A stretch of DNA of 64,000 nt from contig CALWNC010000002.1 of the NCBI GenBank assembly GCA_944382715.1, positions 8,738 through 72,737 of the forward strand, written 5' to 3'. Positions within the stretch are counted from its first letter, which is position 1. Each line of letters starts with the position of its first letter. The notes below the pieces were generated by a model. That model was not told the DNA's origin and searched no databases. It saw only the letters and a program-made list of their open reading frames with translations. The position numbers and the translations under genes were made by a program. The stretch comes from an uncultured Clostridia bacterium. GTDB taxonomy: Bacteria > Bacillota > Clostridia > Christensenellales > UBA1242. This document shows, in pieces, positions 40,201-64,000 of this stretch.

Positions 40201-40210
40201 TGTGGATTGA

Positions 40211-40239: not shown

Positions 40240-40272
40240 CTACAATAGAATAAAAATCAAGGAGTTTTGTTA

Positions 40273-40452
40273 ATGGGTGTTTTAACAGTTAGCGAAATCG
40301 CAAAAAAGTGGAAAATAAGCGAAAGGTCAGTGCGCAACTATTGCAAGCAAGGCAGAGTAAAAGGTGCGGAACAGAAAGGTAAATTATGGCTAATTCCTGA
40401 GGATGCTAAAAAACCAGAAAGAGTAGAACGCAAAATAATGTCTTGCAAATAA
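40273..40452 (+). CDS. small MerR/excisionase-type HTH protein (~59 aa)
   Basis: LTVSEIAKKWKISERSVRNYCKQGRVKGAEQKGKLWLIPEDA. aaggag lies upstream of the ATG at 40273. Confidence 0.7.
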   Translation: MGVLTVSEIAKKWKISERSVRNYCKQGRVKGAEQKGKLWLIPEDAKKPERVERKIMSCK

Positions 40453-40612
40453 TAATGTTCCGTTTATAATTAAAGATAAATACTAATTTTATTGCTTATC
40501 TGAACTAAAAGAGTGGAGCACTGGGTGTGGTCATTCAACAAATACTGTACGCGTTGTCAAGATGAATTTTAAATATTTGATATGTTTTACGATAGACAAA
40601 AGAGGAGATTAA

Positions 40613-41479: not shown

Positions 41480-41492
41480 TAAGGAGTTTGGT

Positions 41493-44301: not shown

Positions 44302-44664
44302 TTATTTATATTCATTATATTTTTTATTGCAACCTTTAACTTTTTCAACTGGATATTTCTCATTGTTTTTTTCAATTTTTGATTTTATGGATTCAGATAG
44401 ATCTATATCATTCATTTGTGCAAATCTTAAAACAAAATAAAATACATCTGAAAGTTCTTCTTCAACTTCTTTTCTTTTTTCAGATTTCATAAGTTTTTCC
44501 ATGTCTGCTTCAGATTTAAATCTAAAAATTTGTAAAAGTTCATTCGCTTCAGTTGATATTCCTATTGCCAAATCTTTTGGATTATGAAATTGATCCCAAT
44601 CTCTTGCTTCGCAAAAGTCTCTTACAATTTTTTTTAGCTCTTCAATAGTTGATTCATTATCCAT
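44302..44664 (-). CDS. MazG-like nucleotide pyrophosphohydrolase (small all-alpha NTP-PPase)
   Basis: FCEARDWDQFHNPKDLAIGISTEANELLQIF...EEELSDVFYFVLRFA is the EExxE/D-type MazG/DCTPP1-like pattern. Confidence 0.75.
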   Translation of the reverse strand: MDNESTIEELKKIVRDFCEARDWDQFHNPKDLAIGISTEANELLQIFRFKSEADMEKLMKSEKRKEVEEELSDVFYFVLRFAQMNDIDLSESIKSKIEKNNEKYPVEKVKGCNKKYNEYK

Positions 44665-46531
44665 TATTAACTCCTAAAAGTTTTTTAATATAATTAGCTA
44701 AAGGTTTATCTTCACAATAAATATAACAACCTTTTTGGCCTCTTGTTAAAAGTGTTTTATATGTATTTTTTATAAGAACATTTGCCAGTTTATCACTTGA
44801 ACTTCTTATACCTGAAGATTTATCATCTTTAGAAATCATAGTTCTATCTGTTATAACTTCTCCCTTAGACTCATCAAATCTTACATCCTTACCAATAATA
44901 ACTCCAACATAATCAAACTCTAAACCTTGTGCTGTATGGATACAACCAACTTCTTCAAAGGATTTTGGGTTCACAGCCCATAATTTATCATCTTCCAAAT
45001 TCCATTTTGCTTTAAATCCATTTTCCAAAATGATATCAAAATCGCCACGTTTATTCTTAACATTCCAATCATAGCAATATCCAGCAACCATTCTTGCTTT
45101 ATTATGTTCTTTATTTTTTTCTCTAAGAAAATCTCTCATTTCATTTGGATCATCGAACACTTTTATATCAAAATTAAGATCACTAAAATCAATTTCAATA
45201 AATTCACCTATTTGCAAAATATCATTCACTAATTGTATATATTGATCACTTCCATTACACCTAAATTGAGAGCGTAATATTGTGCTTTCATTTTCAATGA
45301 CTCTACTGCCTAGCATGTTTGCCCATTTATGAATTTCTTCTATAGAACCTATATCTTTATTTGTTATTCTTTGATCTTCATCAATTAAGAAAATTGTAAA
45401 TAAAGATGCTGCTATACATTCTTTTACTTGATTTTCACCATAGAAATCACCATACATTTTTTTAACCAATCTATGAGCTTCGTCTACAATAAGGCAATCA
45501 TATGCGTTCTCTGGCACATGACTTAATCCAAAAGGGGATCTAAATAATTGTTTTATATTTACTGCTTTTTTTAGATCTGAATTTGCTAACAAATTAAGAT
45601 ATACTTCTCTAGGAGCACTATTTTTAGTTACATAACTTGCATTTAATTTTTGTTGAGTAAACTCATTTAATAAATTTATTGCAAGTACTGATTTTCCAGT
45701 TCCTGGACCTCCTTGAATTATGATTGTTCTCTTTTTCATATCTTTAAGGCATTGTTTCATTATTAATTTACACATATCAAATGCAACAACTTGATCGTCT
45801 AATAATACAAATTCCTTATTACCTTTCATTAAAGATACTAAATAATCTTGCAATGCTTTAGATGGCTTAATTCTTCCATTATCAATCTCATAGAGTAAAT
45901 CTCCATTGGTTGATTTTTTATAAATATATTTTTTTATAAAATTTCTCATTTCCATTACTTGATTTTTAATGAAAAAAGGTGCTTCATCGTACCAAACTTT
46001 ATAAATTTTATCATTCAATGCATCTAAATATTGTGGTTCATAATTGTGAAGATAGGCACATGGTATAACTCCAATATGTTGGTCTACTATTTGATCAGAA
46101 GAATTTTTTATAAAAACAGCATAAGAATATGCTTGATATGATGGATGGCTTACATCTCTATAATTATGTCCTGTATATGTTCTAACACTATGCAACATTT
46201 CATCATCTATTTTTTCAGCTTTTTGCCATTGCTTTAATTCTATAACAACAACATTATCATTACCATTTTTATCAGCTCCAGAAATAATAAAATCAACCCT
46301 TTTAGAAGTTCTGGGAAGTTGGTACTCGATAGTAATACCAGCATCCTCAGGTATTTCTTTATCATTTAACACCATCTTCATAAAGGGAAGTGAATTTTGC
46401 CAAGCGTTATACTCACTTTCTTGTCCACCAGATAATCCTTTTTCTCTTAATTTATTATAAATAATATCCGAAATTTGATTCATCTCTACATCATAATCAA
46501 ATTGCTTTTTTGAAGTATTGTAAACAATCAT
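44657..46531 (-). CDS. DUF2075-type (Schlafen-helicase-like) SF1 ATPase with an N-terminal PD-(D/E)xK-like module
   Basis: RVDFIISGADKNGNDNVVVIELKQW is nuclease-like. Walker A is IIIQGGPGTGKSVLAINLL and Walker B is CLIVDEAHRL. The C-terminal motif is IHTAQGLEFDYVGVIIG. Overlaps the MazG-like gene by 8 nt. Confidence 0.7.
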   Translation of the reverse strand: MIVYNTSKKQFDYDVEMNQISDIIYNKLREKGLSGGQESEYNAWQNSLPFMKMVLNDKEIPEDAGITIEYQLPRTSKRVDFIISGADKNGNDNVVVIELKQWQKAEKIDDEMLHSVRTYTGHNYRDVSHPSYQAYSYAVFIKNSSDQIVDQHIGVIPCAYLHNYEPQYLDALNDKIYKVWYDEAPFFIKNQVMEMRNFIKKYIYKKSTNGDLLYEIDNGRIKPSKALQDYLVSLMKGNKEFVLLDDQVVAFDMCKLIMKQCLKDMKKRTIIIQGGPGTGKSVLAINLLNEFTQQKLNASYVTKNSAPREVYLNLLANSDLKKAVNIKQLFRSPFGLSHVPENAYDCLIVDEAHRLVKKMYGDFYGENQVKECIAASLFTIFLIDEDQRITNKDIGSIEEIHKWANMLGSRVIENESTILRSQFRCNGSDQYIQLVNDILQIGEFIEIDFSDLNFDIKVFDDPNEMRDFLREKNKEHNKARMVAGYCYDWNVKNKRGDFDIILENGFKAKWNLEDDKLWAVNPKSFEEVGCIHTAQGLEFDYVGVIIGKDVRFDESKGEVITDRTMISKDDKSSGIRSSSDKLANVLIKNTYKTLLTRGQKGCYIYCEDKPLANYIKKLLGVNNG

Positions 46532-47004
46532 AAATTAATCCTCTTACCCGAATTATATCATAAAAATAAAAAAATGTATTAAATAAACATACATTTTTTA
46601 TTTAAATATATAAATCTAGTTTAATTTGCTTTCGTAGTGGCTTGGTTTTCATATGTGTAATAAGAAAAAACTTTGCAATAGATAAATCTATTAATTTGTG
46701 CCTTTATTTAGTAAAAATATAAATTTCCAATAATGGCAAAAAAGGGGCCTCTATCATCTTTACAAACTATTATTTAATAAGCTAATGTTAAGGTCTTATT
46801 GTTATTTCGGAAAAATAAGTTCCTAAATTTTTAAAAAATCTACTCGTATCTTTTTACGAAAGAAAAGACGAACAGAAAATAAAATACTTTATGAGCAAAA
46901 CTAATGGAAAGAATTTTAAAATAAATTAAAAGCTGTTATTATTAGTAACATTATAATTAATTGTGATGATATAAGATTATTTCAATAATAGAAAAGTATA
47001 TAAA

Positions 47005-48147
47005 TTATTCATTATCTTTTGTTGTATATCTATCTATTTCATAATTTAATTTATCAATTTCATCATTTAATTTTGCTGTTTCATTAATTATATCTTCCTT
47101 ATTATTTAATAAATATTTAAGATAATACAATTTCTCATTTTCAGAAAGTTTTTTACTATTCGCAATAATATTAAATATCTTTTCATACACATCATATTTA
47201 TATGATAAATTCATAACTTTATTTTTTAATCCATTTATTTTGTAATGTCTAATATTTTTATTCATGAAAACATAATCAAAAAATGTTTCATCGTTTATGT
47301 TAATTGGTTCAATTTTTACTTCTTCTAATATTTTTTCATCTATATTGGTTGTTGAAAACTTTAAAAAACTTTCTAAAGTATACATATGAAATATTCTATT
47401 ATTTGTTTCAGACATAAATTCTTTTCTTAGTTCAATCCTTGGACCTATCGTTTTTCCATTTATTATATTCCACCAATCAGGTTTTTTATCATTGGTTATA
47501 AATATTACATCTTTATTATTATCCTTAGCATATTTAATAATTTCTTTCCATATTATTAAATCACCATATATATTATTTAATATATCACTGTTCTTTTTTT
47601 TAGACTCATCTTTATATCCAGGAGGAATTTCTTTTTTGAATCTTTCTTCGCCCTCTTTTTCAATTAATGCTATTTCGTCAGAAGTATAACTAATACCTGT
47701 TTTACCTTCAAATAATTCTAGTAATTTTTCTAATATTATATCCTTATTAAAATCTTTTACTAACAAATTTTCATTACAATGTTTATCAATCCATTTATTT
47801 AATTTATTGGAGTAATTTAAACATTCCTCATTTGAATCATTTATATTAAATACATTAGATAATTTTTTTAAATATGTTTTAGTTTCTTCTTTTAATTCTT
47901 CATAATTTTTTATATTATCTAATATTATCTTTATCCTGTTTTTCATAAATTCTTCTGCTATTTGATGAGGCATCCAAATTCGATCTTTAATTTTTTTAAT
48001 GGCATCAAAAAATGCGTCCCTCGCATCATTTGTTAAGCCATACAATCTTAAAAATATATTTGTATCAAAAATAAATGTTGCTTTATTCCATAATTTTGAT
48101 TTTTCAGTTGTATTTAATTCAATATATTCCTTTATAGAATTTCTCAT
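47005..48147 (-). CDS. PIN-like domain protein (380 aa) with a coiled-coil C-terminus
   Basis: ATFIFDTNIFLRLYG...DRIWMPHQIAEEFMKNR and DVIFITNDKKPDWW blocks, typical of stand-alone PIN-like nucleases. Confidence 0.55.
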   Translation of the reverse strand: MRNSIKEYIELNTTEKSKLWNKATFIFDTNIFLRLYGLTNDARDAFFDAIKKIKDRIWMPHQIAEEFMKNRIKIILDNIKNYEELKEETKTYLKKLSNVFNINDSNEECLNYSNKLNKWIDKHCNENLLVKDFNKDIILEKLLELFEGKTGISYTSDEIALIEKEGEERFKKEIPPGYKDESKKKNSDILNNIYGDLIIWKEIIKYAKDNNKDVIFITNDKKPDWWNIINGKTIGPRIELRKEFMSETNNRIFHMYTLESFLKFSTTNIDEKILEEVKIEPININDETFFDYVFMNKNIRHYKINGLKNKVMNLSYKYDVYEKIFNIIANSKKLSENEKLYYLKYLLNNKEDIINETAKLNDEIDKLNYEIDRYTTKDNE

Positions 48148-48266
48148 ATGTCAATCTCCTAATAAATAGTATATAAAATTTTTATTAAAAATAAATAACC
48201 ACTTTATTTTATAAATGCTAAAATTATTATTTCATATAATTTTACTAAAATAGAATTGATTTTAAA

Positions 48267-50036
48267 TTATTCTTTTTTAGAAAAATATTGCTTTACTAAT
48301 AGTTCTACTCTTTGATTACAAGATTTGTCATTTATATTTTCTTCTTTTAATTTAATTAAATAATTGTATAAGTCATCTTTGCATTCTTTAATATTATTTA
48401 CTACAACTTGACATATTAAATGATTTAATTGCCATGAGTCTTCTGTGATATCATTTGTTATATTTGTTAAATAAAAATTATTAGACTTTAACAATTTAAG
48501 TATAGCTTTCTTTGTATCGTCATTATATGTATCAAAATTTTTAGAAATTTTTGCAATAATGCTTCCAATATTTTTTTTGTTTGATTGATTCAGCTCTTGT
48601 ACAATATCAAAGTTTTCTCTTTCCTTACAATAATCTTCATATTTTTTAGCCAACAACTTAAACTTATTATTATTTTCTCCAATTAAATTAAATTTAAATT
48701 GCAACTCTTTTAATTTATTAAATAGTCTATCTTCATCAATAAAGCTCAAATCTAAATAATCATAATATGAACACCATTCATTTAAGAACTGATTAATTAG
48801 ACTATAACTATATTTGTTTTTGTTAGGCATACCCAGTATGTAGTCAAATCGTTTTTTTGCAGCTTTAATTTTATTTTTGTCAGATAAGTAAAAACAACTT
48901 TCAAAAAGAACTTTATTATTTTTATTATCCCCAAAAAAATCATCAATAAAAGAAATATTGTTTTTATCATTAACCAAATAAACACAATGTAAATACCTAT
49001 TAAAATTTGGCTCGATTGAATTTTGTGGTATACCAAATTTATTCTTATTATAAAATGTTATAGATCCTATAACCGAATTATCAAAAAACATTAAGTTCGC
49101 TTTATCTTTTATACTATTATTTAAATCATTGGTATATTTATGAGTAAAACTTTCAATTGTTATATACATACAACATCTAAATAATATTTTTAAATCCACG
49201 TTTTTATATTTCTTATTGTTTATATAATTTTTCAAAATATTAAACAGTCTATTAGTTTTGATAAGTAAACGAAGATTTTTATTAAATTCTTTTAATCCAT
49301 CTTCTTCAATATAACCTTTATTATTTCCCAATATTTCAAGCATAATATCTTCTGGAGTTTCATCTATCGTGTATATTTTATCAAATACTTTTTCTTTATA
49401 TTCTCCTAAAATATCTTCACCCCAATTTACTTTAGAAACTACATAAGTTTTTTCATCAATCTCTAAATTATACTTATTTTTAAGTTTTCCATATTTACAT
49501 TTTAAATCTGCTAAAACAACAACTTTAAAACCTTGTAGTATTAAGTTATTTATATAACCCAATAAATCGTCATTTGAAATTAAATCGCTTTTTCTTTCAA
49601 AATCATCAATAACAACTAAATATTTCTTCTTTAGTTTATTATTACTTTTATTTAAAGAAATGCTATTGGAATCTATTTTTGCTTCAGCACTAACTTTTAA
49701 ATTATCACTTAATTTTAAATCATAATTAATTTTTGCATTAATATTAATTAATTTAACAGCACAACTAATTATTGTTAAAACTTGATTTTTTTTCTTATTA
49801 ATCAAATTGTATAGTTCAGTATTTACTTCATCTAAACTTTTTTTACCAAATAATGAAATATAATAAAATTTCCATTTTTTATGTTTCTTTTTAATTTTTT
49901 TATCATTTAAAAATAACTTAGCTTGATATGTTTTTCCAATACCCCAATCACCATCAAATAAAATTGCACTAAGATCACTATTTAAAAAATTATCTAATTC
50001 ATTATAAATCTCATTTACTTTCATAATTGCTCCCAT
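48267..50036 (-). CDS. KAP-family P-loop NTPase (589 aa)
   Basis: FDGDWGIGKTYQAKLF Walker A, LVVIDDFER Walker B, and a long helical C-terminus. No obvious TM insert. Confidence 0.65.
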   Translation of the reverse strand: MGAIMKVNEIYNELDNFLNSDLSAILFDGDWGIGKTYQAKLFLNDKKIKKKHKKWKFYYISLFGKKSLDEVNTELYNLINKKKNQVLTIISCAVKLININAKINYDLKLSDNLKVSAEAKIDSNSISLNKSNNKLKKKYLVVIDDFERKSDLISNDDLLGYINNLILQGFKVVVLADLKCKYGKLKNKYNLEIDEKTYVVSKVNWGEDILGEYKEKVFDKIYTIDETPEDIMLEILGNNKGYIEEDGLKEFNKNLRLLIKTNRLFNILKNYINNKKYKNVDLKILFRCCMYITIESFTHKYTNDLNNSIKDKANLMFFDNSVIGSITFYNKNKFGIPQNSIEPNFNRYLHCVYLVNDKNNISFIDDFFGDNKNNKVLFESCFYLSDKNKIKAAKKRFDYILGMPNKNKYSYSLINQFLNEWCSYYDYLDLSFIDEDRLFNKLKELQFKFNLIGENNNKFKLLAKKYEDYCKERENFDIVQELNQSNKKNIGSIIAKISKNFDTYNDDTKKAILKLLKSNNFYLTNITNDITEDSWQLNHLICQVVVNNIKECKDDLYNYLIKLKEENINDKSCNQRVELLVKQYFSKKE

Positions 50037-54914: not shown

Positions 54915-57900
54915 TTAAACTTCCCAATACAACTTAGGATAATTTTCACCATCAAATATCCATATATTATTTGGATTTATTATCATATCTTCATTAGATA
55001 TAAATTCTCCATAATTAATAAAATTAGGATTTTTTAGATATTCATCATTTGTCATGCTAGTTTCTATTTTTATTGTTTCTGATCCACCACCATTATATGT
55101 AACTTGTTTTGTTATAGTAGAATTTGATGATTCATAACAATTATACATATTACCTATTTTAATATATATACCGGTTGCATAACTAACTGCCCATGTTCCA
55201 TCTAATCCTACTGCAGTAATATCACCAGCAATAAATGAGTTACTAATGACTCCTTTATTTTTTACAACATATGCACCACAATAAATAGAGCACTCATCTG
55301 CATAAGATCTTAAATTTGCAGAACTATAACAATATGAAATATTACCATAATTATTAATAGCAAAGTTTGCTATATAGATATTATCATAAGGTCTTGTAAC
55401 ATTAATTAAGCCTTCTATGTAACAATTTCTTATTGTTCCATTATTATTTATTACAATAGCTGCCGCACAATTACGAGCTTGTAAGGAGGCATTTATTTTA
55501 CATTTATCAATTGTACCATCATTAGTATTTGATATTACTACTGTTTCACTTCCAGTAATTGTTGCATTTTCAAAATTAATATTATAAATATAACCTTTAT
55601 TATAATAGAATAAAGTATTTGAAAGATTTATAATGCTATATCCACAACCATCTATAATTCCTGTAAATGGGTTATTTTCACCTCCAAATGTAGTAAATGA
55701 AGAGCCTTCCAGGTTAATATTCTGAGTGAGATAATAATTCCCATCTAAATTATTTTTAATATTTAAGAATTCAGAAATATTAGAAATTGGAATAAAAGAG
55801 TTGTCTTGTGACCATACAGCCCCAAATTGTTTATCTCCATAACTACCAGCTTCAATAATTAATTCTTTTGTTGGTTCCGTTAAATCAGATCCAATCCAAC
55901 CTTCAAAAATATAACCATCTCTTATAGGGTTATTAATATAAATATCTAAATCTTCTATAGTATATGAAGTAGCATTTTCAGTTATTATTTTTCCATCGTT
56001 TAAACTATAAGATATTCTATAAGATAAAAGTTCCCACATTGGGTAAACTAATGTATTTTCTGGTATACTCCAAGTTGAAGTAGAATTTCCATAATTATCT
56101 GTTAATTGGACTCCGGTTGCATTCATACCAGAATACCAACCATTAAAAATATATCCATTTTTCTCAGGAATAGGCAAAGTATATGCTGTATCAAAAGTTA
56201 CATTTTCAGTATTATTACTTAATATAACATCATTATCAACAATCATTGTTACTTCATAATCATTTGCTTCCCATTTAGCAGTATATGTAATTGGATAATT
56301 ACTCATTACAAATGAATATGTATTTTTACTTGTAATGAGTTCTGTTCCATTAAACCAACCAACAAATTTATAACCTGCATTTGTATTAGCAACAATAGTA
56401 ACATTACTATTGAACTCTTTTAAACCTGAGCCTTCAACGCTACCAGCATTGTTATTATTAGTATTAAGAGTTAATTGATATTCATTAATTTTGTAATGGG
56501 CAATTAGTTCTGCTTCATATGGTTTATCCCATATTTCTATGGATTCACCTAAATTATTTGTATATTGCTTATTATTTGAATCAAACCAACCTAAAAATAT
56601 AGCTTCTTCTCTAGTAGGTGTTGGCAAAGTAAAGTGCTCACCATATATAAGTTCTTTTGTATTTTGTGATAAGGTATTTCCGTTATTAACATCTAAAGAA
56701 ATTAAATATTTGTTAGCTGACCAAACAGCAGTAAATTCAATATTTGTATCAGGAATTGTTACTTCTAAAATTTCAGATGATGATACTATAACATCATTAG
56801 AATACCAACCAATCCAAGTATAGCCAGCATTTGTAATTGCTGATAAAGTTTGTTTGCTATTATAATCAAAGTTACCAACTCCTTGTATTTGGCCAGCTTC
56901 ATTTATATTTTTAATAACACTAATATTATATTGATTTATTGACCACTGAGCATATAAATTTATATTCGATGGAATATTATAATTATTAAATATTGTTCCA
57001 GGTGAATAACTAGTCCCACTTCCATCATCTTTAGTATTCCAACTTTCTAATGTATAACCTTCTCTTATAAATTCAGAATTATTTTTCAATGTAACATAGG
57101 AATCATATGTTATATCTTGAAAGGATGAAATATTATTTCCAAAATTTGAAAAATAAGTTATTGTTAAATTTTTTGCAATCCAATTTGCTGTAATTGTTAT
57201 ATTTGAATTAATTGGCTTACTAAAATCGTAATCCCAGCCATTAAAAATATATCCTTCTCTAACAGGATCTTGATATGTTGCTAAATCACCTTCCTGAACT
57301 ATTTGATTGGTTATAAATTCACCACCTGCAGTATTAAAAGTTATGACATACAATGGTTTTCTACGAATGTTTATTTGATAGATTTTTTGTTCACCAACAT
57401 TATTTTCAATAATAATATAAAATGTATTATTTCCAACTTGTAAATCTACTGTTTTGGATTTTATTTCAGTTAACCCATTTATATCATAATATACACTCCA
57501 AGTGTTAGTTCTTGGAACTTCAATTATATTATTAAAAGAAAAAGTTTCAGCATTATTATCTACAACGCATGTAGCAGTTTGATTTTCATTATCAATTTCG
57601 AAAATGGTTGATTCTTCAATTCTAGGATTTCGTGGAATAAAAAAATAACATAATAAAGTTGTTAAACCCAGAATAAAGACTATAGAAATAGTAGTTATTA
57701 ATGAAGTCCAGAATCTTTTTCTTTTTTTCTTATTTAAACTATTTTCTTTATTTATTACTACCAAATTTTCATTTATTTCAATTTTGTTTTGATCACTATC
57801 ATTTTCTTTATTGGTTTTTACTAATTCATCTAGTGTAATATTAAAGATTTCTGATATTTTACTTAAGTATTCAATATCTGGGATTCCATTACCACATTCC

Positions 57901-58007
57901 CATTTGCTAATAGTTTTATTTGATACATTAAGTTTATTAGCTAAATCTTGTTGAGATAGATGATTTGTTTTTCTTAGTTCAGAAATTCTTTTACCTATAT
58001 TATTCAT
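54915..58007 (-). CDS. membrane-tethered XRE-HTH protein with a ~900-aa extracellular Listeria-Bacteroides-repeat / GLUG-like domain
   Basis: N-terminal IGKRISELRKTNHLSQQDLANKLNVSNKTISKWECGNGIPDIEYL. One TM (FWTSLITTISIVFILGLTTLLCYFFI). Repeated ...REGYIFNGW... units. FTGIIDGCGYSIINL is a GLUG-type motif. The likely start is MNNIGK at 58007. Confidence 0.7.
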   Translation of the reverse strand: MNNIGKRISELRKTNHLSQQDLANKLNVSNKTISKWECGNGIPDIEYLSKISEIFNITLDELVKTNKENDSDQNKIEINENLVVINKENSLNKKKRKRFWTSLITTISIVFILGLTTLLCYFFIPRNPRIEESTIFEIDNENQTATCVVDNNAETFSFNNIIEVPRTNTWSVYYDINGLTEIKSKTVDLQVGNNTFYIIIENNVGEQKIYQINIRRKPLYVITFNTAGGEFITNQIVQEGDLATYQDPVREGYIFNGWDYDFSKPINSNITITANWIAKNLTITYFSNFGNNISSFQDITYDSYVTLKNNSEFIREGYTLESWNTKDDGSGTSYSPGTIFNNYNIPSNINLYAQWSINQYNISVIKNINEAGQIQGVGNFDYNSKQTLSAITNAGYTWIGWYSNDVIVSSSEILEVTIPDTNIEFTAVWSANKYLISLDVNNGNTLSQNTKELIYGEHFTLPTPTREEAIFLGWFDSNNKQYTNNLGESIEIWDKPYEAELIAHYKINEYQLTLNTNNNNAGSVEGSGLKEFNSNVTIVANTNAGYKFVGWFNGTELITSKNTYSFVMSNYPITYTAKWEANDYEVTMIVDNDVILSNNTENVTFDTAYTLPIPEKNGYIFNGWYSGMNATGVQLTDNYGNSTSTWSIPENTLVYPMWELLSYRISYSLNDGKIITENATSYTIEDLDIYINNPIRDGYIFEGWIGSDLTEPTKELIIEAGSYGDKQFGAVWSQDNSFIPISNISEFLNIKNNLDGNYYLTQNINLEGSSFTTFGGENNPFTGIIDGCGYSIINLSNTLFYYNKGYIYNINFENATITGSETVVISNTNDGTIDKCKINASLQARNCAAAIVINNNGTIRNCYIEGLINVTRPYDNIYIANFAINNYGNISYCYSSANLRSYADECSIYCGAYVVKNKGVISNSFIAGDITAVGLDGTWAVSYATGIYIKIGNMYNCYESSNSTITKQVTYNGGGSETIKIETSMTNDEYLKNPNFINYGEFISNEDMIINPNNIWIFDGENYPKLYWEV

Positions 58008-58217
58008 ACTTTTCTCCATAAAAAAATTATAACACAAAAAATAATAGATTGCACTATAGAATTATCTATTTTATAAAGATAAAATCTATAATTAGTAGAA
58101 TATTAACAATAAACAATTAAATTATTTATAATATGATTGAAAAAATAGATAATTTTATTCTAAATTTTTATTTTTAAATTAATTTATAAAAATTCTTGTA
58201 TACTTTTAATGGATTAT

Positions 58218-59204
58218 TTAATCATTATATTGATTTTGCATTTCATTAATAATAGATTTAATCTTATTTCTAGTTTCAAGTGGCTCTAGAATTTCAACAT
58301 ACTGACCATATTGAAGAGCCCAGAAAATTAATGACTCTTCATTAACTTTCAAACTAGCAATAATTTCATTATCAATCTTTTCAAGATTTACATCTTTTCC
58401 AAACCACTCAATAAAATCATTAACTTTATCTTCCGTGTTAATTTTTACCTTTGCTTTAACAGATTTTCCAAAAGCCATATAGATATGTTCTTTTATATAT
58501 TCTTTCATTGAAAAATTTTCTTGATTGGATAGGGTATTAATAGGCTTAACATCTTCGTCAAGAATTTTAATATTTGAAATAAAATCTATCTTGTAATTTG
58601 AAAGGTCATTATATTTATTATAATTGCAAACAAGATAATATTTACCCTTATTATTAACCATAAAATATGGATTGATTTTATAAAATTTACCATCACCTTT
58701 AAGTTTAATTTTTTTATCAATACCATAAGCTCCATATTGAAATTCAACTTTCTTTTTCTTTTCAATGGCTTCACTCAAAATTTCAATATTTAAAAATATT
58801 TCTTTATTGTCATTTATAATTTCATCATCTATTTTTTCAAGGTATTTATATTTCTTCTTTTTGTAAATACTTAAATTTTTAGTAAGCTTATCAACCAAAT
58901 CCTTTACATATCTTGTTGGCATTGAATGAGAGGAGTAAATTGCGTCAATTAAATATAAAAGTTCACCTTCTTCAAAGTCTCTAAAACCTAAATATAAACC
59001 ACGATTACCTTTTTTAACGATATCATATCCGAAATTTTGCAGAATAGAAACATCTCTCGCAACTGTTTTTCGTTCAATCTCGATACCAAAGGTATTGTAA
59101 AGTTTATTTTGTATCATATCATAAGTTAATAAATGAGTTTCATCAGAATATTGCTTAAGAACTTTAAGAGTATATAAAATAGACCCTTTCTTTTCGTTTA
59201 ACAT
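58218..59204 (-). CDS. WYL-domain transcriptional regulator (wHTH-WYL-WCX; BrxR/CapW/PafBC-like layout)
   Basis: N-terminal wHTH (LTYDMIQNKLYNTFGIEIERKTVARDVSILQNFGYDIV). WYL block (FYKINPYFMVNNKGKYYLVCNYNKYNDLSNYKIDFISNIKIL). Confidence 0.7.
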   Translation of the reverse strand: MLNEKKGSILYTLKVLKQYSDETHLLTYDMIQNKLYNTFGIEIERKTVARDVSILQNFGYDIVKKGNRGLYLGFRDFEEGELLYLIDAIYSSHSMPTRYVKDLVDKLTKNLSIYKKKKYKYLEKIDDEIINDNKEIFLNIEILSEAIEKKKKVEFQYGAYGIDKKIKLKGDGKFYKINPYFMVNNKGKYYLVCNYNKYNDLSNYKIDFISNIKILDEDVKPINTLSNQENFSMKEYIKEHIYMAFGKSVKAKVKINTEDKVNDFIEWFGKDVNLEKIDNEIIASLKVNEESLIFWALQYGQYVEILEPLETRNKIKSIINEMQNQYND

Positions 59205-59250
59205 TTCATCCTCCAGAATTTTATAGTATTACATTATTAGTATAGCATAC

Positions 59251-59276
59251 TTAAAATCCTAAAAAAAGGATTTTAA
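59251..59276. promoter_or_regulatory. 10-bp-arm palindrome in the WYL/helicase divergent intergenic region (candidate operator)
   Basis: ttaaaatcct-aaaaaa-aggattttaa. Confidence 0.35.
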
Positions 59277-59470
59277 AATTAAATTAATTGCAACGTGTGA
59301 GACTTGTCCTGAATAAGATAAGAAGACACATAATTGTCAATTTTATTAAAAATCTGTATTCATACAATACTTTTATTTGGAATTTAATTAAAAAATTTTA
59401 TAATTATTAATAATAATTAATATTCAATAATTTCATGTTATGATATACTCATATTAGAGGAGATTCTTTT

Positions 59471-62400
59471 ATGTTTAAATTATTTGGCCGAAATAAAGAT
59501 GTCCCTGAAGAAGTAAAACAAATTTTGAAATACAACGAAGAGTTAAAATCTTTAATTAACTCTGATAATTATCTTTCTAGAAAAGATTGTTTTTATATGA
59601 TTGGAAAATATGCTGAGGTTTATAATTTTTTTAAAACAATTTATACATCTCAATTGATTAAATCATATTCAAAGAAAAATGGTGTTGATATAAATGTTAT
59701 AACAAATTTTCTAAGTGACTATGAAAATTTTAATAAAATAATAGCTTCAAGGAATAATTCATATGTAGAAGAGAAATTGAAAGTTGAAAAAGAATATTTG
59801 GATAACATATTAAAAGAAGTTGATCCCAAAATTTTATTGGATAATGATCAAAGAAAAGTTATTTTAACAGATGAAGATTATTGTTTAGTTATTGCAGGTG
59901 CTGGTGCTGGAAAAACTACGACGGTTGCAGCAAAAGTTAAATATTTGGTTGAAAGGAAAAAAATAGATCCTAAACAAATATTGATTATTTCTTTCACTAA
60001 TAAGGCTGTTGGTGAATTAAGAGAAAAAATAAATAAAGATTTAAATATAGATTGTCCAATTACTACATTTCACTCTGCAGGCAATGCTATATTGAGAAAA
60101 AAAACTGATGAAAAATTAAATATTGTTGAAGGTGGATTTTTATATAATTCAGTTAGAGATTATTTTATTCACAAAATTAAAGATAAAAGAGTTGCGGATA
60201 ATATAGTTTTATTTTTTGGTAGTTATTTCGAAACTCAATATGAAGGAACTAATAAGAATGAGTATTTAAACCATATTATTAAATCTGACTTTTCTACAAT
60301 GAAAAGTAATTTGAATGAATATCAATATCAAGGAATTATTAATAACAAAAAGGTTACTTTGAATAATGAAATTGTTAATTCTGTTCAAGAGTTAAAAATT
60401 GCAAATTTTTTATACTTAAATGGTGTTGATTATGAATATGAACCTATTTATCCATATCATATCTTCATGGCAAAAAAAAGATATACTCCAGATTTTTTAA
60501 TTAAACAAAATGGAAAACTTTTATATCTTGAGCATTTTGGAATTTCAGAAAGTGGTCAAAATAATAGATTTTCGCCAGATGAACTTCAAAAATATAAAAA
60601 GCACATTAATGATAAAATATTAATTCACAAAAAGCATAATACTAATTTAATTTATACTTTTTCTGAGTATAATGATGGTGTTGATTTTATTGAACATTTA
60701 AGAGCCCTTTTATTAGATAATGGTATTAATTTATCACCAAAACCATCTGAAGAAATTCTTGATAAATTAAGTAAAATTCAAGAGAACAAATATATTTCTA
60801 AAATGGTTTTCTTAATTTGTGATTTTATTAGTAATTTTAAGGTAAATGGATACACAGAAGAAAAATTTTATGAATTTATAAGAACAACAAAAAGTGAAAG
60901 AACAAAGTTGTTTTTGGAAATTTGTAGAGAATGTTATTTAGAATATCAAAAAGATCTTGCAAAAAATAATGCTGTTGATTTTCAAGACATGATAAATGAT
61001 GCTGCTAGAGCTTTACGAGAAGTAGAAAGTTTGAAAAGTAAGTTAGATTTTAGATATATAATAATTGACGAATATCAAGATATTTCAAGACAAAGATTTG
61101 ATATGGCAAAAGAGTTATCAAAAGTTACGGATGCTAAGATTATTGCAGTAGGTGATGATTGGCAATCAATATTTGCATTTAGTGGTTCAGATGTTTCTTT
61201 GTTTACTAAATTTTGTGAAAAAATGGGCTATGGAGAAGAATTAAAAATTACAAGAACATATCGTAATGCTCAAGAAGTTATTGATATTGCTGGTGGTTTT
61301 ATCCAAAAAAATGATGCACAAATAAAAAAATCTTTAATTTCACCAAAACATATTGAAGATCCAGTCATTATTGTAAGCTATGATGATAGTCCAAAAAAAT
61401 ATGATGAAACAGCTAAAGAGGCTGGTCCTTTGTATAAAATGGCTGAAGCATTGGAATATGCTATTTCTGAAATTATTAACAAAACAGGAAAGGAAAGTAG
61501 TATTTTACTCATTGGTAGGTATAATTATGATGGTGAAAACTTAACAAGAACAGGAAAATTTGATTATAATACTAAAGGTAATAGAGTAATTTCTAAAAAA
61601 TTTCCATCTGTAAATATTACATTTTTAACAGCACATAGTTCTAAAGGTTTAGGATATGACAATGTTATTATTATAAATGCTAAGGATGCTATTTATGGTT
61701 TTCCTTCTAAAATTGAAGATGATCCAGTTATGAAGCTTGTAACAAAACAAGATAATGAGATTGAGTATGCTGAAGAAAGGAGATTATTTTATGTTGCTCT
61801 AACTAGAACAAAAAATAGAGTTTATTTAATTGTCCCAGAAAAGCATCCTTCAGAGTTTGTTATGGAAATTAAAAATGAATATAATAATATTGTTTTGAAA
61901 GGAGAAGAATTAAAGCCAGAACAAAGAACGTTGATGACTAAAAATTTATGTCCAATATGCGGATATCCTTTACAACGAAGATACAAAAAAGGATGTTCTA
62001 TGAATTTATGGGTTTGCACAAATGAACCTGAAGTTTGTGGATTTTTATCTAACAATTTAATTGGTGGAAAAATGTCTATACAAAAATGTCCAGATTGTTT
62101 AGATGGATATTTGATAGTAAAGACAAAAAATAATTATCCATTTTTAGGTTGTACAAATTATAAATCAGATGGTACTGGATGTAACCATACTGTTTCGTTA
62201 AAGGATTTTGAATTGCAAGGCAATGATGATTCAATTGTTGAAAAAGAAAATGTTGAAAAATTATCTAATGATATAACAGAAACATCATTATTTGATTTAT
62301 CATTAATAAAAAAAGATTCAGAACAACCTAAAATGTCAGAATCTATTGAAGATAAAAGTGAAGATGAGGAGAAAAATCCATATTATTTTTCAGATAAAAA

Positions 62401-63592
62401 TTTAAATGAACTTGCCATTAAGTTAAGGGAATTTGCTGAGACTCAGGGAGAAAAAGAAAATGTTGATTTTTGGAAAATTTTAAGGAAAAAGGCAATTATA
62501 TCGCTGTGTTTAAATAAGCCAACAACACTTCAAGAAATGCAAAAATCGTGTAACCTTTTAGGTTCTGTAAAAATTAATAAGTATGGTAATCAAATTATTA
62601 ATATTATAAAAAACCATATAGAGAAAGAAAAGGAAAATAAAATCTCAGATAATAATATTCCATCACCTGAAAAAGCTAATAATATAAAAATTACAAAAAA
62701 GAAAAAGAAATTTTTTGATAGTAAATTCTTGAATGGATTAGCTTTACGACTTCAAGATTATTCTATAAATCAAGCTCAAAAAGAAAATATAATTTCAAAG
62801 TTGGTGTTGAAAAATACAGCCATTGAAAGCATATGTTATAATCTACCTCTTACAAAAGAAGAATTTTATTCTAAAAGGGTATTGTTGGGGAAAAGAGAAG
62901 TTGAAAAATATGGTGATGATGTAATTAATATTATTAAAAAGTATATTAGGGAGCAGAATGAGTATAATCCTATCATACCTAAATTAAATTTAAGAGTTTT
63001 AGATGTTTGTCAAAGGATAATCAGTGTATGTTGTGATATTAGTAAAGGTGGATTAAAAAATATACCTACTTTAGTGGGAGTTTTAAGAGGGAAAATTCCA
63101 GTAGGAAATAATAATGAGCAATTTAAAAATATTAAACATTTTGGATTACTACAAAACATTAAAACACATGTTGTTTTTAATTTAATTGAGTATTTAGTAG
63201 AAGAAGGAATTTTTATAAAAGGTAATCATGTTGACCCTTTCATTAAAGTTAATATCCCTTATTATTTAGATAATATAGATAAGTCAAGGATTTTTGATAT
63301 TTTTGAGAATGATAACGAAAATAGAATTATTAAAATTGAAGATAATGAGGAAGAAGTAAATAAATATAATAAGAAGCTATATGAAGAGTTGGCCAAATTA
63401 AGAGAACAAATTGCTACTAGAAAAAATTGTCAATTATATATTGTCGCTACTAATGAATTATTAAAAAGACTTTCATATTACATGCCAGTGCAAAGGAATG
63501 AATTTTTATCAATAAAGGGAATTAGAGATAGGTGGTATGATTCATATGGTCAAGCATTTGCTGAAATTATAAAAAATTTCAGACAAGATTAA
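59471..63592 (+). CDS. 1373-aa UvrD/Rep-type SF1 helicase fused to a Vsr/PD-(D/E)xK-like insert, Zn ribbons, an RQC-like domain and three HRDC-like domains
   Basis: Helicase motifs VIAGAGAGKTTT, IIIDEYQDIS, GDDWQSIFAFSG, TRTYRN, TAHSSKGLGYDNVIIIN and RRLFYVALTRTKNRVYLI. Insert SVQELKIANFLYLNGVDYEYEP...YTPDFLI...LYLEHFG. Zn ribbons CPICGYPL.. and CPDCLDGYLIV..LGCTNY..GC. HRDC-like segments near aa 980, 1090 and 1300, and an RQC-like segment near aa 1170-1260. Confidence 0.75.
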   Translation: MFKLFGRNKDVPEEVKQILKYNEELKSLINSDNYLSRKDCFYMIGKYAEVYNFFKTIYTSQLIKSYSKKNGVDINVITNFLSDYENFNKIIASRNNSYVEEKLKVEKEYLDNILKEVDPKILLDNDQRKVILTDEDYCLVIAGAGAGKTTTVAAKVKYLVERKKIDPKQILIISFTNKAVGELREKINKDLNIDCPITTFHSAGNAILRKKTDEKLNIVEGGFLYNSVRDYFIHKIKDKRVADNIVLFFGSYFETQYEGTNKNEYLNHIIKSDFSTMKSNLNEYQYQGIINNKKVTLNNEIVNSVQELKIANFLYLNGVDYEYEPIYPYHIFMAKKRYTPDFLIKQNGKLLYLEHFGISESGQNNRFSPDELQKYKKHINDKILIHKKHNTNLIYTFSEYNDGVDFIEHLRALLLDNGINLSPKPSEEILDKLSKIQENKYISKMVFLICDFISNFKVNGYTEEKFYEFIRTTKSERTKLFLEICRECYLEYQKDLAKNNAVDFQDMINDAARALREVESLKSKLDFRYIIIDEYQDISRQRFDMAKELSKVTDAKIIAVGDDWQSIFAFSGSDVSLFTKFCEKMGYGEELKITRTYRNAQEVIDIAGGFIQKNDAQIKKSLISPKHIEDPVIIVSYDDSPKKYDETAKEAGPLYKMAEALEYAISEIINKTGKESSILLIGRYNYDGENLTRTGKFDYNTKGNRVISKKFPSVNITFLTAHSSKGLGYDNVIIINAKDAIYGFPSKIEDDPVMKLVTKQDNEIEYAEERRLFYVALTRTKNRVYLIVPEKHPSEFVMEIKNEYNNIVLKGEELKPEQRTLMTKNLCPICGYPLQRRYKKGCSMNLWVCTNEPEVCGFLSNNLIGGKMSIQKCPDCLDGYLIVKTKNNYPFLGCTNYKSDGTGCNHTVSLKDFELQGNDDSIVEKENVEKLSNDITETSLFDLSLIKKDSEQPKMSESIEDKSEDEEKNPYYFSDKNLNELAIKLREFAETQGEKENVDFWKILRKKAIISLCLNKPTTLQEMQKSCNLLGSVKINKYGNQIINIIKNHIEKEKENKISDNNIPSPEKANNIKITKKKKKFFDSKFLNGLALRLQDYSINQAQKENIISKLVLKNTAIESICYNLPLTKEEFYSKRVLLGKREVEKYGDDVINIIKKYIREQNEYNPIIPKLNLRVLDVCQRIISVCCDISKGGLKNIPTLVGVLRGKIPVGNNNEQFKNIKHFGLLQNIKTHVVFNLIEYLVEEGIFIKGNHVDPFIKVNIPYYLDNIDKSRIFDIFENDNENRIIKIEDNEEEVNKYNKKLYEELAKLREQIATRKNCQLYIVATNELLKRLSYYMPVQRNEFLSIKGIRDRWYDSYGQAFAEIIKNFRQD

Positions 63593-63790
63593 AAAATTTT
63601 AAATAAAAATTATTATAATGGCTAAAAATATGGGAAAAGTAAATTAATAATATTTAATTGAAGATTGAAATTATAAAATAAAAAAGAGATTGATTTATAC
63701 ATTTCTGTTAATCAATCTCTTTAATTTATATAAAGCGATTAATAATTCAATTATTAAAAATGTTTTGGCATTTTGTAAATAAAAACAAAA

Positions 63791-64000
63791 TTAAAATTTA
63801 GAGTAGTGATCACTTTCTATTTCGGAATAATTTTCAGCTTCTTCTTGCATGGATTTTCTAAATATATTAAAAAACCAATTTGGAATTTTTATAAAACTTT
63901 TTCTATAATAAAATAATTTTTCTTCGAGGACATAAAGGTCAGTCATTGAAATATTATTTTTTGCTTTATACGAAATAATTATTGCGCTAAGATCCTTTTG
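63791..64000 (-). CDS. 3' end of an unidentified minus-strand gene (5' part outside the window)
   Basis: Frame open from nt 64000 down to a TAA at 63791-63793 (…EAENYSEIESDHYSKF*). A hairpin with a T-run on the minus strand lies at ~63682-63721. Confidence 0.4.
   Translation of the reverse strand, partial: QKDLSAIIISYKAKNNISMTDLYVLEEKLFYYRKSFIKIPNWFFNIFRKSMQEEAENYSEIESDHYSKF

What the first reader, a model, noticed from the sequence alone, without database searches (positions are those of the whole stretch)
58218..63592. WYL regulator divergent from a giant chimeric helicase (UvrD core + Vsr-like insert + Zn ribbons + RQC-like + three HRDC-like domains)
WYL/BrxR/CapW-type regulators typically gate defence or DNA-damage modules. 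Here the only partner is a 1373-aa protein. Its SF1 UvrD/Rep motifs are interrupted by a PD-(D/E)xK/Vsr-like block (ANFLYLNGVDYEYE...PDFLI...LEHFG). Two topoisomerase-type Zn ribbons follow, and then accessory domains that normally belong to the SF2 RecQ family. I do not recognise this combination as a described protein family. It could be a single-gene nuclease-helicase immunity factor or a stress-induced repair enzyme carried by the element.
Basis: partly seen in the sequence, partly recalled or inferred. Interest (0 to 1): 0.7.

Follow-up and report, generated by a model that had tools for sequence, protein, structure and literature searches.

The report
Widespread helicase with built-in nuclease domain
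The 1373-residue protein is real and is one long-tailed member of a large, horizontally spread, uncharacterised family of UvrD/helicase-IV-like helicases with a nuclease-fold domain inside the motor, but its pairing with the neighbouring WYL regulator is peculiar to this one mobile element and looks coincidental.

Summary
Both ORFs exist as described, and the domain list is essentially right. The helicase has an SF1A UvrD core closest to helicase IV. It carries a ~135-aa PD-(D/E)xK-fold insert (T7 endonuclease I/Hjc-like, not Vsr), two Cys4 ribbons, and a RecQ-derived tail (HRDC-HRDC-RQC-HRDC).

The architecture is not a one-off. The insert matches 1,504 representatives of 50%-identity clusters, nearly always at the same position in 850-1300-aa helicases. 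Relatives occur in at least 563 genome loci across five phyla and on 114 plasmids, and are annotated only generically. The insert's acidic residues are as conserved as the ATPase motifs. The RecQ-like tail is a minority add-on; RecQ is adjacent in about five loci and fused in one.

The WYL link fails comparative tests. No WYL gene neighbours the helicase in 80 genome loci or in six looked-up homologs. None of 80 loci encoding regulator relatives carries the helicase. The regulator's conserved palindromic operator sits on its own promoter. The helicase has its own conserved extended -10 about 170 bp away, plus a terminator.

Best reading: an independently transcribed helicase-nuclease cargo gene, probably acting on ssDNA or branched DNA in defence or in mobile-element DNA processing. 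The function is untested.

The parts
58218..59204 (-). wHTH-WYL-WCX transcription regulator, 328 aa
   Evidence: ORF. Pfam WYL and WCX. Foldseek best matches are DriD 1e-12 and PafBC 1e-11, then BrxR 1e-7 and CapW 1e-6. The WYL-motif position reads KYYLV, not the RWHVR of CapW/BrxR (sequence compared with PMC11662680).
59253..59274 (.). Palindromic operator AAAATCC-N8-GGATTTT over the -35 position of the WYL gene's promoter
   Evidence: Conserved in register upstream of five WYL genes whose flanks otherwise diverge. It is the only exact copy in the window. L180, L181 and L182 each have three exact copies.
59239..59247 (-). Extended -10 (TGCTATACT) of the WYL gene promoter
   Evidence: Invariant TG-N-TATACT block in the five-way alignment.
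59441..59449 (+). Extended -10 (TGATATACT) of the helicase's own promoter, about 170 bp from the operator
   Evidence: Conserved as TGTTATACT at the same distance upstream of the 76%-identical homolog P0001.
59471..63592 (+). 1373-aa helicase-IV-related SF1A helicase with embedded nuclease-fold domain, Zn ribbons and RecQ-type tail
59840..60127 (+). Motor domain 1A, N-terminal part (aa 124-219), with Walker A GAGAGKT at 142-149
   Evidence: Pfam UvrD-helicase. Aligns to E. coli HelD 174-293. Invariant columns.
60350..60757 (+). PD-(D/E)xK-fold insert (aa 294-429) within the expanded 1B region; conserved E307, E324, P340-D341-F342, E354-H355, K382, H386
   Evidence: AF2 model. Foldseek. PHROG resolvase and endonuclease hits. 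PADLOC PDC-S68 and PDC-S69. Conservation. Absent from E. coli HelD.
61043..61885 (+). Motor 1A C-terminal part plus 2A (aa 525-805): motif II DEYQD 533-537, GDDWQS 561-566, AEERRLFYVALTR 767-779; no 2B-sized insert
   Evidence: Pfam UvrD-helicase and UvrD_C. 29% identity to HelD 359-675.
61949..62038 (+). Cys4 zinc ribbon 1 (C827, C830, C849, C856)
   Evidence: The four Cys are at least 90% conserved in 83 diverse relatives. Weak Zn_ribbon_bTOP1 hit.
62081..62200 (+). Cys4 zinc ribbon 2 (C873, C876, C894, C904), topoisomerase-I type
   Evidence: Zn_ribbon_Top1 27.7 bits and Zn_ribbon_recom 28.4 bits. Zn_ribbon_Top1 is found in 29 of 46 relatives.
62417..62608 (+). HRDC1 (aa 983-1046)
   Evidence: Pfam HRDC 1.7e-7. 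41% identical to HRDC2.
62765..62935 (+). HRDC2 (aa 1099-1155), a tandem duplicate of HRDC1
   Evidence: Pfam HRDC 1.1e-4, 22.6 bits. BLASTP against HRDC1 gives 2e-18.
63071..63220 (+). RQC-like winged helix (aa 1201-1250); weak assignment
   Evidence: Pfam RQC E 0.0026. TIGR01389 RecQ positions 420-590 align to aa 1197-1369. BLASTP to a RecQ neighbour's residues 430-612 gives 1e-9.
63374..63571 (+). HRDC3 (aa 1302-1367)
   Evidence: Pfam HRDC 5.4e-15. Matches the E. coli RecQ HRDC structure 1wud at 6.5e-7.
63683..63722 (.). 13-bp-stem hairpin between the convergent helicase and S_4TM genes; likely bidirectional terminator
   Evidence: RNA fold -16 kcal/mol, z = -4.65 against shuffles. Sequence.

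Best explanation
The 1373-aa gene is a monocistronic cargo gene of an integrated mobile element. It encodes a member of a large, horizontally mobile, uncharacterised family of helicase-IV-related SF1A helicase-nucleases.

Shown computationally:
- The ATPase and translocase motifs are intact.
- A PD-(D/E)xK-fold domain (T7 endonuclease I / Holliday-junction-resolvase-like) sits inside the enlarged 1B region, and its acidic residues are as conserved as Walker A.
- Two Cys4 ribbons follow the motor.
- A tail derived from the RecQ C-terminus (HRDC x2, RQC, HRDC) follows the ribbons.
- The gene has its own promoter and terminator.

Inferred:
- The motor translocates 3'->5' on ssDNA like UvrD and HelD.
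- The ribbons and the RQC/HRDC modules direct it to ssDNA, forks or other branched DNA.
- The 1B-embedded nuclease cuts the DNA being unwound, as RecB and AddA do in a single polypeptide.
- Because the gene sits among anti-restriction and defence cargo, and relatives sit on plasmids and beside R-M, GmrSD/DUF262, HNH and AbiE genes, the most likely role is destroying or processing foreign or replicating DNA intermediates (defence or inter-element conflict).

The adjacent WYL regulator is a separate module. It binds a palindrome on its own promoter, probably senses ssDNA, and most likely controls itself and perhaps the co-directional 1040-aa gene. It probably does not control the helicase.
For: Architecture.

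Family size and position of the insert: 1,504 representatives (592 at E <= 1e-10), with the match at about aa 280-560 of 850-1300-aa proteins. UvrD is present in 46 of 46 and Zn_ribbon_Top1 in 29 of 46 diverse members.

Constraint on the nuclease site: E307, D341, P340, F342 and H386 are invariant, and E324, E354, H355 and K382 are at least 90% conserved, in 83 sequences down to 28% identity.

HGT and accessory status: 45-57% identity across Clostridia, Bacilli, Bacteroidales, Spirochaetes and Fibrobacter. 114 plasmids carry relatives.

Neighbourhoods: type I R-M, MTase/HATPase, AbiEii, nSTAND3, DUF262 pairs, GIY-YIG, Sa_NUDIX. The local neighbourhood has ArdA, PcfJ/K, PIN_8, SLFN-g3, SMODS/S_4TM, SNF2-MTase and Rep.

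Independence from WYL. Operator and promoters. Terminator.

RecQ link: RecQ is adjacent in about 5 of 80 loci and fused in L045, and the tail aligns to RecQ RQC-HRDC.
Against: - No biochemical or phenotypic data exist for any member.
- The canonical Lys of the (D/E)xK motif is replaced (E354-H355-F356), so catalysis is not assured.
- Foldseek E-values for the insert are marginal (1.5e-3 or worse), although every hit is a PD-(D/E)xK nuclease.
- Some relatives sit among housekeeping genes (Fur, rubrerythrin, L9; NDK, PPDK), and I made no statistical test of defence-island enrichment.
- The shared 266-bp intergenic region means WYL control of the helicase cannot be excluded.
- In this AT-rich DNA the promoter scan is at chance level, so promoter calls rest on conservation in only a few sequences.
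Confidence: 0.55

Rival explanations
1. The WYL regulator senses ssDNA or DNA damage and switches on (or derepresses) the divergent helicase, so the two genes form a two-gene stress- or infection-induced module.
For: The two genes are divergent and share a 266-bp region that holds the regulator's only exact operator in the window. Regulators of this fold sense ssDNA: PMC11662680 for CapW, and the DriD and PafBC structures are the best fold matches. The same arrangement is present on all 23 contigs that carry the exact protein.
Against: Those 23 contigs are one element. No other helicase relative examined has an adjacent WYL gene, and no regulator relative has this helicase. The operator overlaps the WYL promoter's -35 position and lies about 170 bp upstream of the helicase's extended -10, which is conserved in P0001. 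A 97%-identical WYL gene has different downstream genes.
Confidence: 0.2
2. The enzyme is a genome-maintenance or mobile-element replication factor, not an immunity protein. It would act as a RecQ-pathway partner that resolves stalled forks or recombination intermediates, or it would process the element's own rolling-circle or conjugative ssDNA intermediates.
For: RecQ is the most recurrent annotated neighbour and is fused to a family member in L045, and the tail is RecQ-derived. The element encodes a rolling-circle-type Rep (REP_ORF2-G2P) and PcfJ/K and ArdA transfer-associated genes. The Paenisporosarcina plasmid copy lies near UvrX. Some members lie in housekeeping contexts. Established knowledge: PcrA/UvrD helicases drive rolling-circle plasmid replication.
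Against: The distribution is patchy and shaped by HGT, not core. Members frequently lie next to R-M, GmrSD/DUF262, HNH and AbiE genes. The insert domain is homologous to PADLOC defence candidates PDC-S68 and PDC-S69.
Confidence: 0.3
3. The nuclease-fold insert is catalytically dead. It serves only as a DNA-structure-recognition or protein-interaction module of an otherwise ordinary helicase-IV-type motor. This is compatible with any of the biological roles above.
For: The canonical Lys of the (D/E)xK motif is missing (F356), and H355 varies (Tyr in the Vibrio plasmid homolog). Established knowledge: inactive PD-(D/E)xK domains are known in other helicases and retroelement proteins.
Against: The acidic triad (E307, D341, E354) plus K382 and H386 are invariant or nearly invariant over very divergent members, which is typical of a metal-binding active site. 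Established knowledge: the Lys can migrate to the following helix in several PD-(D/E)xK families.
Confidence: 0.25

Closest known systems
E. coli DNA helicase IV (HelD; NCBIfam PRK11054)
   Same: It is the closest characterised SF1A core: 29% identity over aa 452-802 and 33% over aa 95-219. Both have a compact 2A region without a 2B-sized insert. It is the best NCBIfam hit at 298 bits.
   Different: The score is below the equivalog cutoff of 543. There is no Helicase_IV_N domain. HelD lacks the ~170-aa nuclease-fold insert, the Zn ribbons and the RQC/HRDC tail.
RecB / AddA (helicase-nuclease subunits of RecBCD and AddAB)
   Same: An SF1A UvrD-like motor is covalently joined to a PD-(D/E)xK nuclease, and this is the likely mechanistic analogy. 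There are weak NCBIfam hits to the addA and recB motor regions.
   Different: Their nuclease is a C-terminal RecB-family domain, not an insert in 1B. They work in multi-subunit complexes. There is no Zn ribbon or HRDC.
RecQ C-terminal module (RQC + HRDC)
   Same: Residues 1197-1370 align as a unit with RecQ RQC-HRDC. HRDC3 matches the E. coli RecQ HRDC structure 1wud. From my own knowledge, three HRDC copies recall Deinococcus RecQ.
   Different: There is no SF2 RecQ motor and no RecQ Zn-binding domain. Here the module is appended to an SF1 helicase.
Single-gene or two-gene helicase-nuclease defence systems (Nhi, Hna, Gabija GajB, PADLOC candidates PDC-S68/S69)
   Same: The combination of a nuclease and a helicase, and location in defence or mobile-element cargo. 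The UvrD core hits GajB models. The insert hits the C-terminal regions of PDC-S68 and PDC-S69.
   Different: The GajB hits reflect generic UvrD similarity, and there is no GajA partner. From memory, not tested here, Nhi and Hna use other helicase clades and other domain orders. The PDC-S68/S69 matches cover only the nuclease domain. No member of the present family has a tested phenotype.
wHTH-WYL-WCX regulators (DriD, PafBC, BrxR, CapW)
   Same: Same three-domain fold, and a palindromic site on its own promoter. ssDNA sensing is likely by analogy (PMC11662680).
   Different: There is no sequence-level match to any solved member. The WYL-motif position reads KYYLV, not RWHVR. The fold is closer to the activators DriD and PafBC than to BrxR or CapW. 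It is not positioned at the promoter of the nearby CBASS-like pair.

Membership tests
SF1A UvrD/Rep-type helicase | UvrD-helicase and UvrD_C domains with Walker A, motif II (DExQD) and motif III | tested here: met
   Pfam 5e-47 and 3.6e-15. GAGAGKT at 142-149, DEYQD at 533-537 and GDDWQ at 561-565 are invariant in the family.
DNA helicase IV (HelD) equivalog | Score above the NCBIfam PRK11054 cutoff | tested here: not met
   298 bits against a cutoff of 543.
DNA helicase IV (HelD) equivalog | N-terminal Helicase_IV_N domain (PF12462) | tested here: not met
   Present in E. coli HelD (5.6e-63) and absent from the window protein.
PD-(D/E)xK nuclease superfamily | alpha-beta-beta-beta-alpha-beta core fold | tested here: met
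   AF2 core pLDDT is about 92. All top Foldseek hits are PD-(D/E)xK nucleases, with probability up to 0.98 but E of 1.5e-3 or worse. PHROG resolvase and endonuclease families hit at 5e-6 and 1e-5.
PD-(D/E)xK nuclease superfamily | Catalytic D at the start of beta2 and (D/E)xK in beta3 | tested here: inconclusive
   P340-D341 and E354 are conserved, but the +2 position is F356. K382 and H386 in the next helix are conserved and could substitute.
Vsr / DUF559 endonucleases | Match to Vsr (PF03852) or DUF559 (PF04480), or to Vsr structures | tested here: not met
   No such Pfam hit even at E <= 1. No Vsr entry among the top 50 Foldseek hits.
Topoisomerase-type Cys4 zinc ribbon | Four conserved Cys and a Zn_ribbon_Top1 match | tested here: inconclusive
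   Two Cys4 sets are conserved. This protein scores 27.7 bits, below the cutoff of 32, but 29 of 46 relatives match, the best at 7e-47.
RecQ C-terminal RQC-HRDC module | HRDC domain(s) above the Pfam cutoff | tested here: met
   HRDC1 scores 31.5 bits and HRDC3 55.6 bits, both above 23.8. HRDC2 scores 22.6 bits, which is marginal.
RecQ C-terminal RQC-HRDC module | RQC winged helix | tested here: inconclusive
   Pfam gives 18 bits against a cutoff of 23. Support comes from TIGR01389 and BLASTP unit alignments and from precomputed PF09382 hits in homologs.
Gabija (GajA + GajB) | A GajB-type helicase next to a GajA OLD-family nuclease | tested here: not met
   The PADLOC GajB hits are to the generic UvrD core. 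No GajA-like neighbour is present.
CapW/BrxR-type defence repressors | wHTH-WYL-WCX architecture | tested here: met
   Pfam. Foldseek matches BrxR at 1e-7 and CapW at 1e-6.
CapW/BrxR-type defence repressors | RWHVR motif in the WYL domain (PMC11662680) | tested here: not met
   The sequence reads G-K-Y-Y-L-V-C at 187-193.
CapW/BrxR-type defence repressors | The gene lies at the promoter of the regulated defence operon, and this is conserved across homologs | tested here: not met
   Neither this helicase nor CBASS is conserved next to regulator relatives. The CBASS-like pair here is transcribed from the far side.
DriD/PafBC-type ssDNA-sensing activators | ssDNA binding and activation from a site at the -35 position | not testable with these tools
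   Best fold matches, and the operator overlaps the -35 position of an extended -10 promoter. The sign of regulation and the ligand are unknown.

The most novel reading that the evidence does not exclude
The family is an uncharacterised class of self-contained helicase-nucleases. A resolvase-like PD-(D/E)xK domain built into the 1B domain of a helicase-IV-type motor would cleave branched or ssDNA intermediates as they are unwound. Such enzymes would give single-gene immunity against phages or plasmids, or act in competition between mobile elements, and would cooperate with or substitute for RecQ. The window protein would be a variant that has captured RecQ's DNA-recognition tail.
Probability: 0.3. 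Interest if true: 0.7.

Novelty: new variant of a known kind. Interest (0 to 1): 0.45.

Why it matters
Helicase-nuclease fusions such as RecBCD, AddAB, Nhi and Hna are central to both DNA repair and anti-phage immunity. This family puts the nuclease inside the motor's 1B domain. It has at least about 1,500 clusters at the 50%-identity level, is present in gut Firmicutes and Bacteroidota and on Proteobacterial plasmids, and has no studied member. Characterising one member would annotate thousands of proteins now labelled only 'UvrD-helicase domain-containing protein'. It would also test a mechanistic link to RecQ. The negative result matters too: a WYL regulator next to a gene is not by itself evidence of a regulated defence module, because here the regulator family moves with its own operator and promoter in front of varying cargo.

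Tried and rejected
1. Sequence search of the helicase against the PDB returned only generic UvrD, PcrA, Rep, GajB and RecB cores and the RecQ HRDC. It gave nothing for the insert.
2. Sequence search of the WYL protein against the PDB found nothing meaningful. A structure prediction was needed.
3. The word-indexed search with the insert returned mostly fragments. I replaced it with the exhaustive representative search.
4. My first operator search used the wrong spacer (N7) and missed the real site. I corrected it to N8.
5. A Pfam census of all 83 relatives exceeded the residue limit. I repeated it with 46.
6. The promoter and terminator consensus scan was at chance level in this AT-rich DNA. 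Promoter calls therefore rest on cross-locus conservation.
7. Literature searches for PDC-S68, for helicase IV with HRDC, for UvrD with restriction-endonuclease-like and zinc ribbon terms, and for Nhi found no description of this family.
8. The phage collection returned only five short unannotated faecal contigs and no bona fide phage, so I did not pursue a phage-replication role.
9. I considered and rejected three labels: Vsr/DUF559 for the insert, a Gabija assignment, and a CapW-CBASS module. Although a SMODS/S_4TM pair is nearby, it is transcribed from the far side and no operator copy lies there.


Full report
OBSERVATION. Pfam finds WYL (1.2e-9), WCX (6e-6) and a weak HTH in the small protein. 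In the large protein it finds a UvrD-helicase domain split over residues 124-584, UvrD_C at 714-788, three HRDC stretches, a sub-threshold topoisomerase-type Zn ribbon and a weak RQC. NCBIfam's best hit is DNA helicase IV at 298 bits, below the equivalog cutoff of 543. The RecQ model TIGR01389 aligns its positions 420-590 to residues 1197-1369. Scanning sub-segments fixed the C-terminal map: Zn ribbons at about 817-858 and 871-910, HRDC1 at 983-1046, HRDC2 at 1099-1155 (marginal), RQC-like at 1201-1250 (weak) and HRDC3 at 1302-1367.

THE INSERT. BLASTP against E. coli HelD aligns residues 95-219 and 452-802. HelD has only about 65 residues between those blocks, while this protein has about 230. 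HelD's Helicase_IV_N domain is absent here. On its own the insert gives only sub-threshold Pfam hits, to T7 endonuclease I and TnsA_N. It does hit PHROG families annotated as 'Holliday junction resolvase' (5e-6) and 'endonuclease' (1e-5), and the C-terminal regions of the PADLOC candidates PDC-S68 and PDC-S69. An AlphaFold2 model built on a 26-sequence alignment gives a confident core (residues 294-429, pLDDT about 92) with alpha-beta-beta-beta-alpha-beta order. Foldseek against the PDB returns only PD-(D/E)xK nucleases at the top: the R2 restriction-like endonuclease, Bax1, Hjc, RecU and cap-snatching endonucleases. The E-values are marginal (1.5e-3 or worse), and no Vsr entry appears. So the fold call is right, and 'Vsr-like' is imprecise. 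Mapping conservation onto the model places E307 on helix 1, E324 after strand 1, P340-D341 at the start of strand 2, E354-H355 in strand 3, and K382 and H386 on the following helix. The canonical Lys at +2 is Phe. These residues are invariant or at least 90% conserved in 83 relatives down to 28% identity, as conserved as Walker A and motif II. That argues for a functional site, but catalysis is unproven.

HOW COMMON IS IT. The full-length search found thousands of hits. More than 100 are 50-77% identical proteins of about 940-1370 aa, and the few that carry source names come from gut Firmicutes and are labelled 'UvrD-helicase domain-containing protein'. An exhaustive HMMER search with the insert alone found 1,504 representatives of 50%-identity clusters (592 at E <= 1e-10), almost always at residues about 280-560 of 850-1300-aa proteins. 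In a diverse sample of 46, all have UvrD domains, 29 have Zn_ribbon_Top1, and only 4 have HRDC or RQC. Members in Clostridia, Bacilli, Bacteroidales, Spirochaetes and Fibrobacter are 45-57% identical to the window protein, which implies horizontal transfer. Relatives on 114 plasmids from Rhizobium, Agrobacterium, Vibrio, Acinetobacter, Paenisporosarcina and others carry the same insert motifs. No bona fide phage carries the family. Family lengths fall into classes: about 935-965 aa (core, insert and ribbons), about 1080-1200 aa, and the window's 1373 aa. So the core chimera is ancestral and widespread, and the long RecQ-type tail is the unusual part.

THE TAIL AND RECQ. Residues 1197-1370 align as a unit to the RQC-HRDC region of a RecQ encoded next to a family member (E = 1e-9). 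HRDC1 and HRDC2 are 41% identical to each other, which indicates a tandem duplication. Locus L045 encodes a 1997-aa ORF in which a family helicase (51% identical to the window protein) is followed by a complete RecQ. RecQ-type proteins are the most frequent annotated immediate neighbours, in 4-6 of 80 loci. This suggests a functional link between the family and RecQ, and it explains where the tail came from.

CONTEXT. The exact protein is on 23 contigs, all from the same element. Upstream lie a serine recombinase, a SLFN-g3/DUF2075 helicase, PIN_8, ArdA, PcfK, PcfJ and a 1040-aa HTH_3/Flg_new protein. Downstream, beyond the window, lie a convergent S_4TM + SMODS pair, two unknown genes, an SNF2 helicase with a methyltransferase, and a rolling-circle-type Rep. 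The left part of the window is chromosomal: glycosyltransferases, an RHS protein, DUF6119, and SLFN_AlbA_2 with a Dam methyltransferase. Contexts of relatives vary. They include an MTase/HATPase_c_3 operon next to a relaxase, a type I R-M operon, housekeeping genes, AbiEii with nSTAND3, Sa_NUDIX, paired DUF262 genes with GIY-YIG and UvrX, and DUF6088 with AbiEii on a conjugative-type plasmid. The only recurrent tight partner is a 183-aa protein with no Pfam match, directly downstream in 13 of 80 loci. It is absent here.

THE WYL QUESTION. By tblastn, only 2 of the 80 helicase loci contain any WYL-regulator homolog, and both lie 6-7 kb from the helicase. The Pfam census of 110 immediate neighbours lists no WYL. 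None of the six individually inspected helicase homologs with usable flanks, including the closest of them at 64-71% identity, has a WYL gene. From the other side, the regulator belongs to a large, tightly conserved family of 328-aa proteins. None of 80 metagenomic loci encoding relatives has this helicase. Its closest relatives (75-83% identity) precede an SNF2 helicase or a 274-aa unknown in small elements marked by Rep, FtsK-like and GIY-YIG genes. A 97%-identical copy has yet another downstream neighbourhood. Aligning the upstream regions of five such WYL genes reveals one conserved block: the palindrome AAAATCC-N8-GGATTTT followed at fixed spacing by TG-N-TATACT and the ribosome-binding site. 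The palindrome therefore lies over the -35 position of the WYL gene's own extended -10 promoter. It is the only exact copy in the window. In L180-L182 there are three copies each, in front of small ORFs as well as the WYL gene, so it behaves as this family's operator. The helicase has its own extended -10 (TGATATACT, 59441-59449), about 170 bp away and conserved upstream of the 76%-identical homolog P0001. A strong hairpin terminator follows its stop codon. The regulator's AF2 model matches only wHTH-WYL-WCX regulators. The best matches are the ssDNA-sensing activators DriD and PafBC, then BrxR and CapW. It lacks the RWHVR motif of the CapW/BrxR repressors (PMC11662680). I conclude that the regulator is a self-contained module, comprising its gene, operator and promoter and perhaps the co-directional 1040-aa gene. 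Its juxtaposition with the helicase is most likely an accident of cargo assembly. Control of the helicase from the shared intergenic region is not excluded, and I give it about 0.2.

MECHANISM. Shown computationally: an intact SF1A motor, a conserved PD-(D/E)xK-fold site within the enlarged 1B region, two Cys4 ribbons, the RQC/HRDC tail, and monocistronic signals. Inferred from established knowledge of UvrD, PcrA, HelD, RecB and AddA, topoisomerase I ribbons and RecQ accessory domains:
- The motor translocates 3'->5' on ssDNA.
- The ribbons and the RQC/HRDC modules bind ssDNA, duplex ends or branched DNA.
- The embedded nuclease cuts the substrate as it is unwound.
The biological role is most likely attack on, or processing of, foreign or replicating DNA intermediates, in defence or inter-element conflict. 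A RecQ-linked repair role or an element-replication role is the main rival, and a catalytically dead insert is possible.

COMPARISON AND NOVELTY. The protein is not a HelD equivalog: it fails the score cutoff and lacks the N-terminal domain. It is not Vsr-like, not Gabija, and not a CapW-CBASS module. It works most like RecB or AddA, with a different domain topology. I found no paper describing the family, and databases name it only generically. I rate it a new variant of a known kind (helicase-nuclease fusions). The window protein is a long-tailed member of an existing but uncharacterised family. Interest is moderate at 0.45. The family is a good target for characterisation, but the specific WYL-gated single-gene immunity story is not supported, and no function has been demonstrated.

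Noticed in passing
window 63791-64000 (-), continuing in L002 14321-18792: The window ends inside an S_4TM gene that is preceded by a SMODS cyclase gene. This is a type-I-CBASS-like pair converging on the helicase. Two unknown genes (537 and 346 aa, no Pfam match) lie upstream on the same strand.
   Followed up: partly
window 54915-58037 (-): A 1040-aa protein with an N-terminal Xre-type HTH, a transmembrane segment and Listeria-Bacteroides (Flg_new) repeats lies 180 nt downstream of the WYL gene on the same strand, with no obvious terminator between them. It could be co-transcribed with the regulator.
   Followed up: partly
L180 4108-4127, 5549-5568, 5934-5953; likewise L181 and L182: In relatives, the WYL operator palindrome occurs three times per element. 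Two copies lie in front of tiny ORFs (a 38-aa gene and a ~20-aa hydrophobic peptide). This suggests a small WYL regulon of peptide genes.
   Followed up: no
L048:11261-11812 and 12 other loci: A conserved ~183-aa protein with no Pfam match directly abuts or overlaps the stop codon of family helicases in 13 of 80 genome loci. It may be an operon partner in one subclade. It is absent from the window.
   Followed up: partly
L045:1713-7706: A 1997-aa ORF fuses a family helicase (core, insert and ribbons) to a complete RecQ helicase. Separate RecQ genes flank family members in about five other loci.
   Followed up: partly
window 44657-50036 (-): A minus-strand cluster next to the serine recombinase (42214-43698): a SLFN-g3/DUF2075 helicase, a PIN_8 protein and a 589-aa protein with no Pfam match. 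It looks like another defence-type cargo block.
   Followed up: no
window 38570-42221 (+): A DUF6119 protein sits here; the same family lies inside a type I R-M operon in L010. It is followed by overlapping SLFN_AlbA_2 and Dam-type methyltransferase genes.
   Followed up: no
window 20306-26203 (+): A 1965-aa RHS-repeat protein, likely a polymorphic toxin, lies in the chromosomal part of the window.
   Followed up: no
L188 (P0159 context): A 97%-identical copy of the WYL regulator sits beside different genes: a 95-aa ORF, an aminotransferase, and a convergent BrxL-like ATPase with a DUF7862-7864 protein. The regulator and its promoter therefore appear to move as a cassette.
   Followed up: partly
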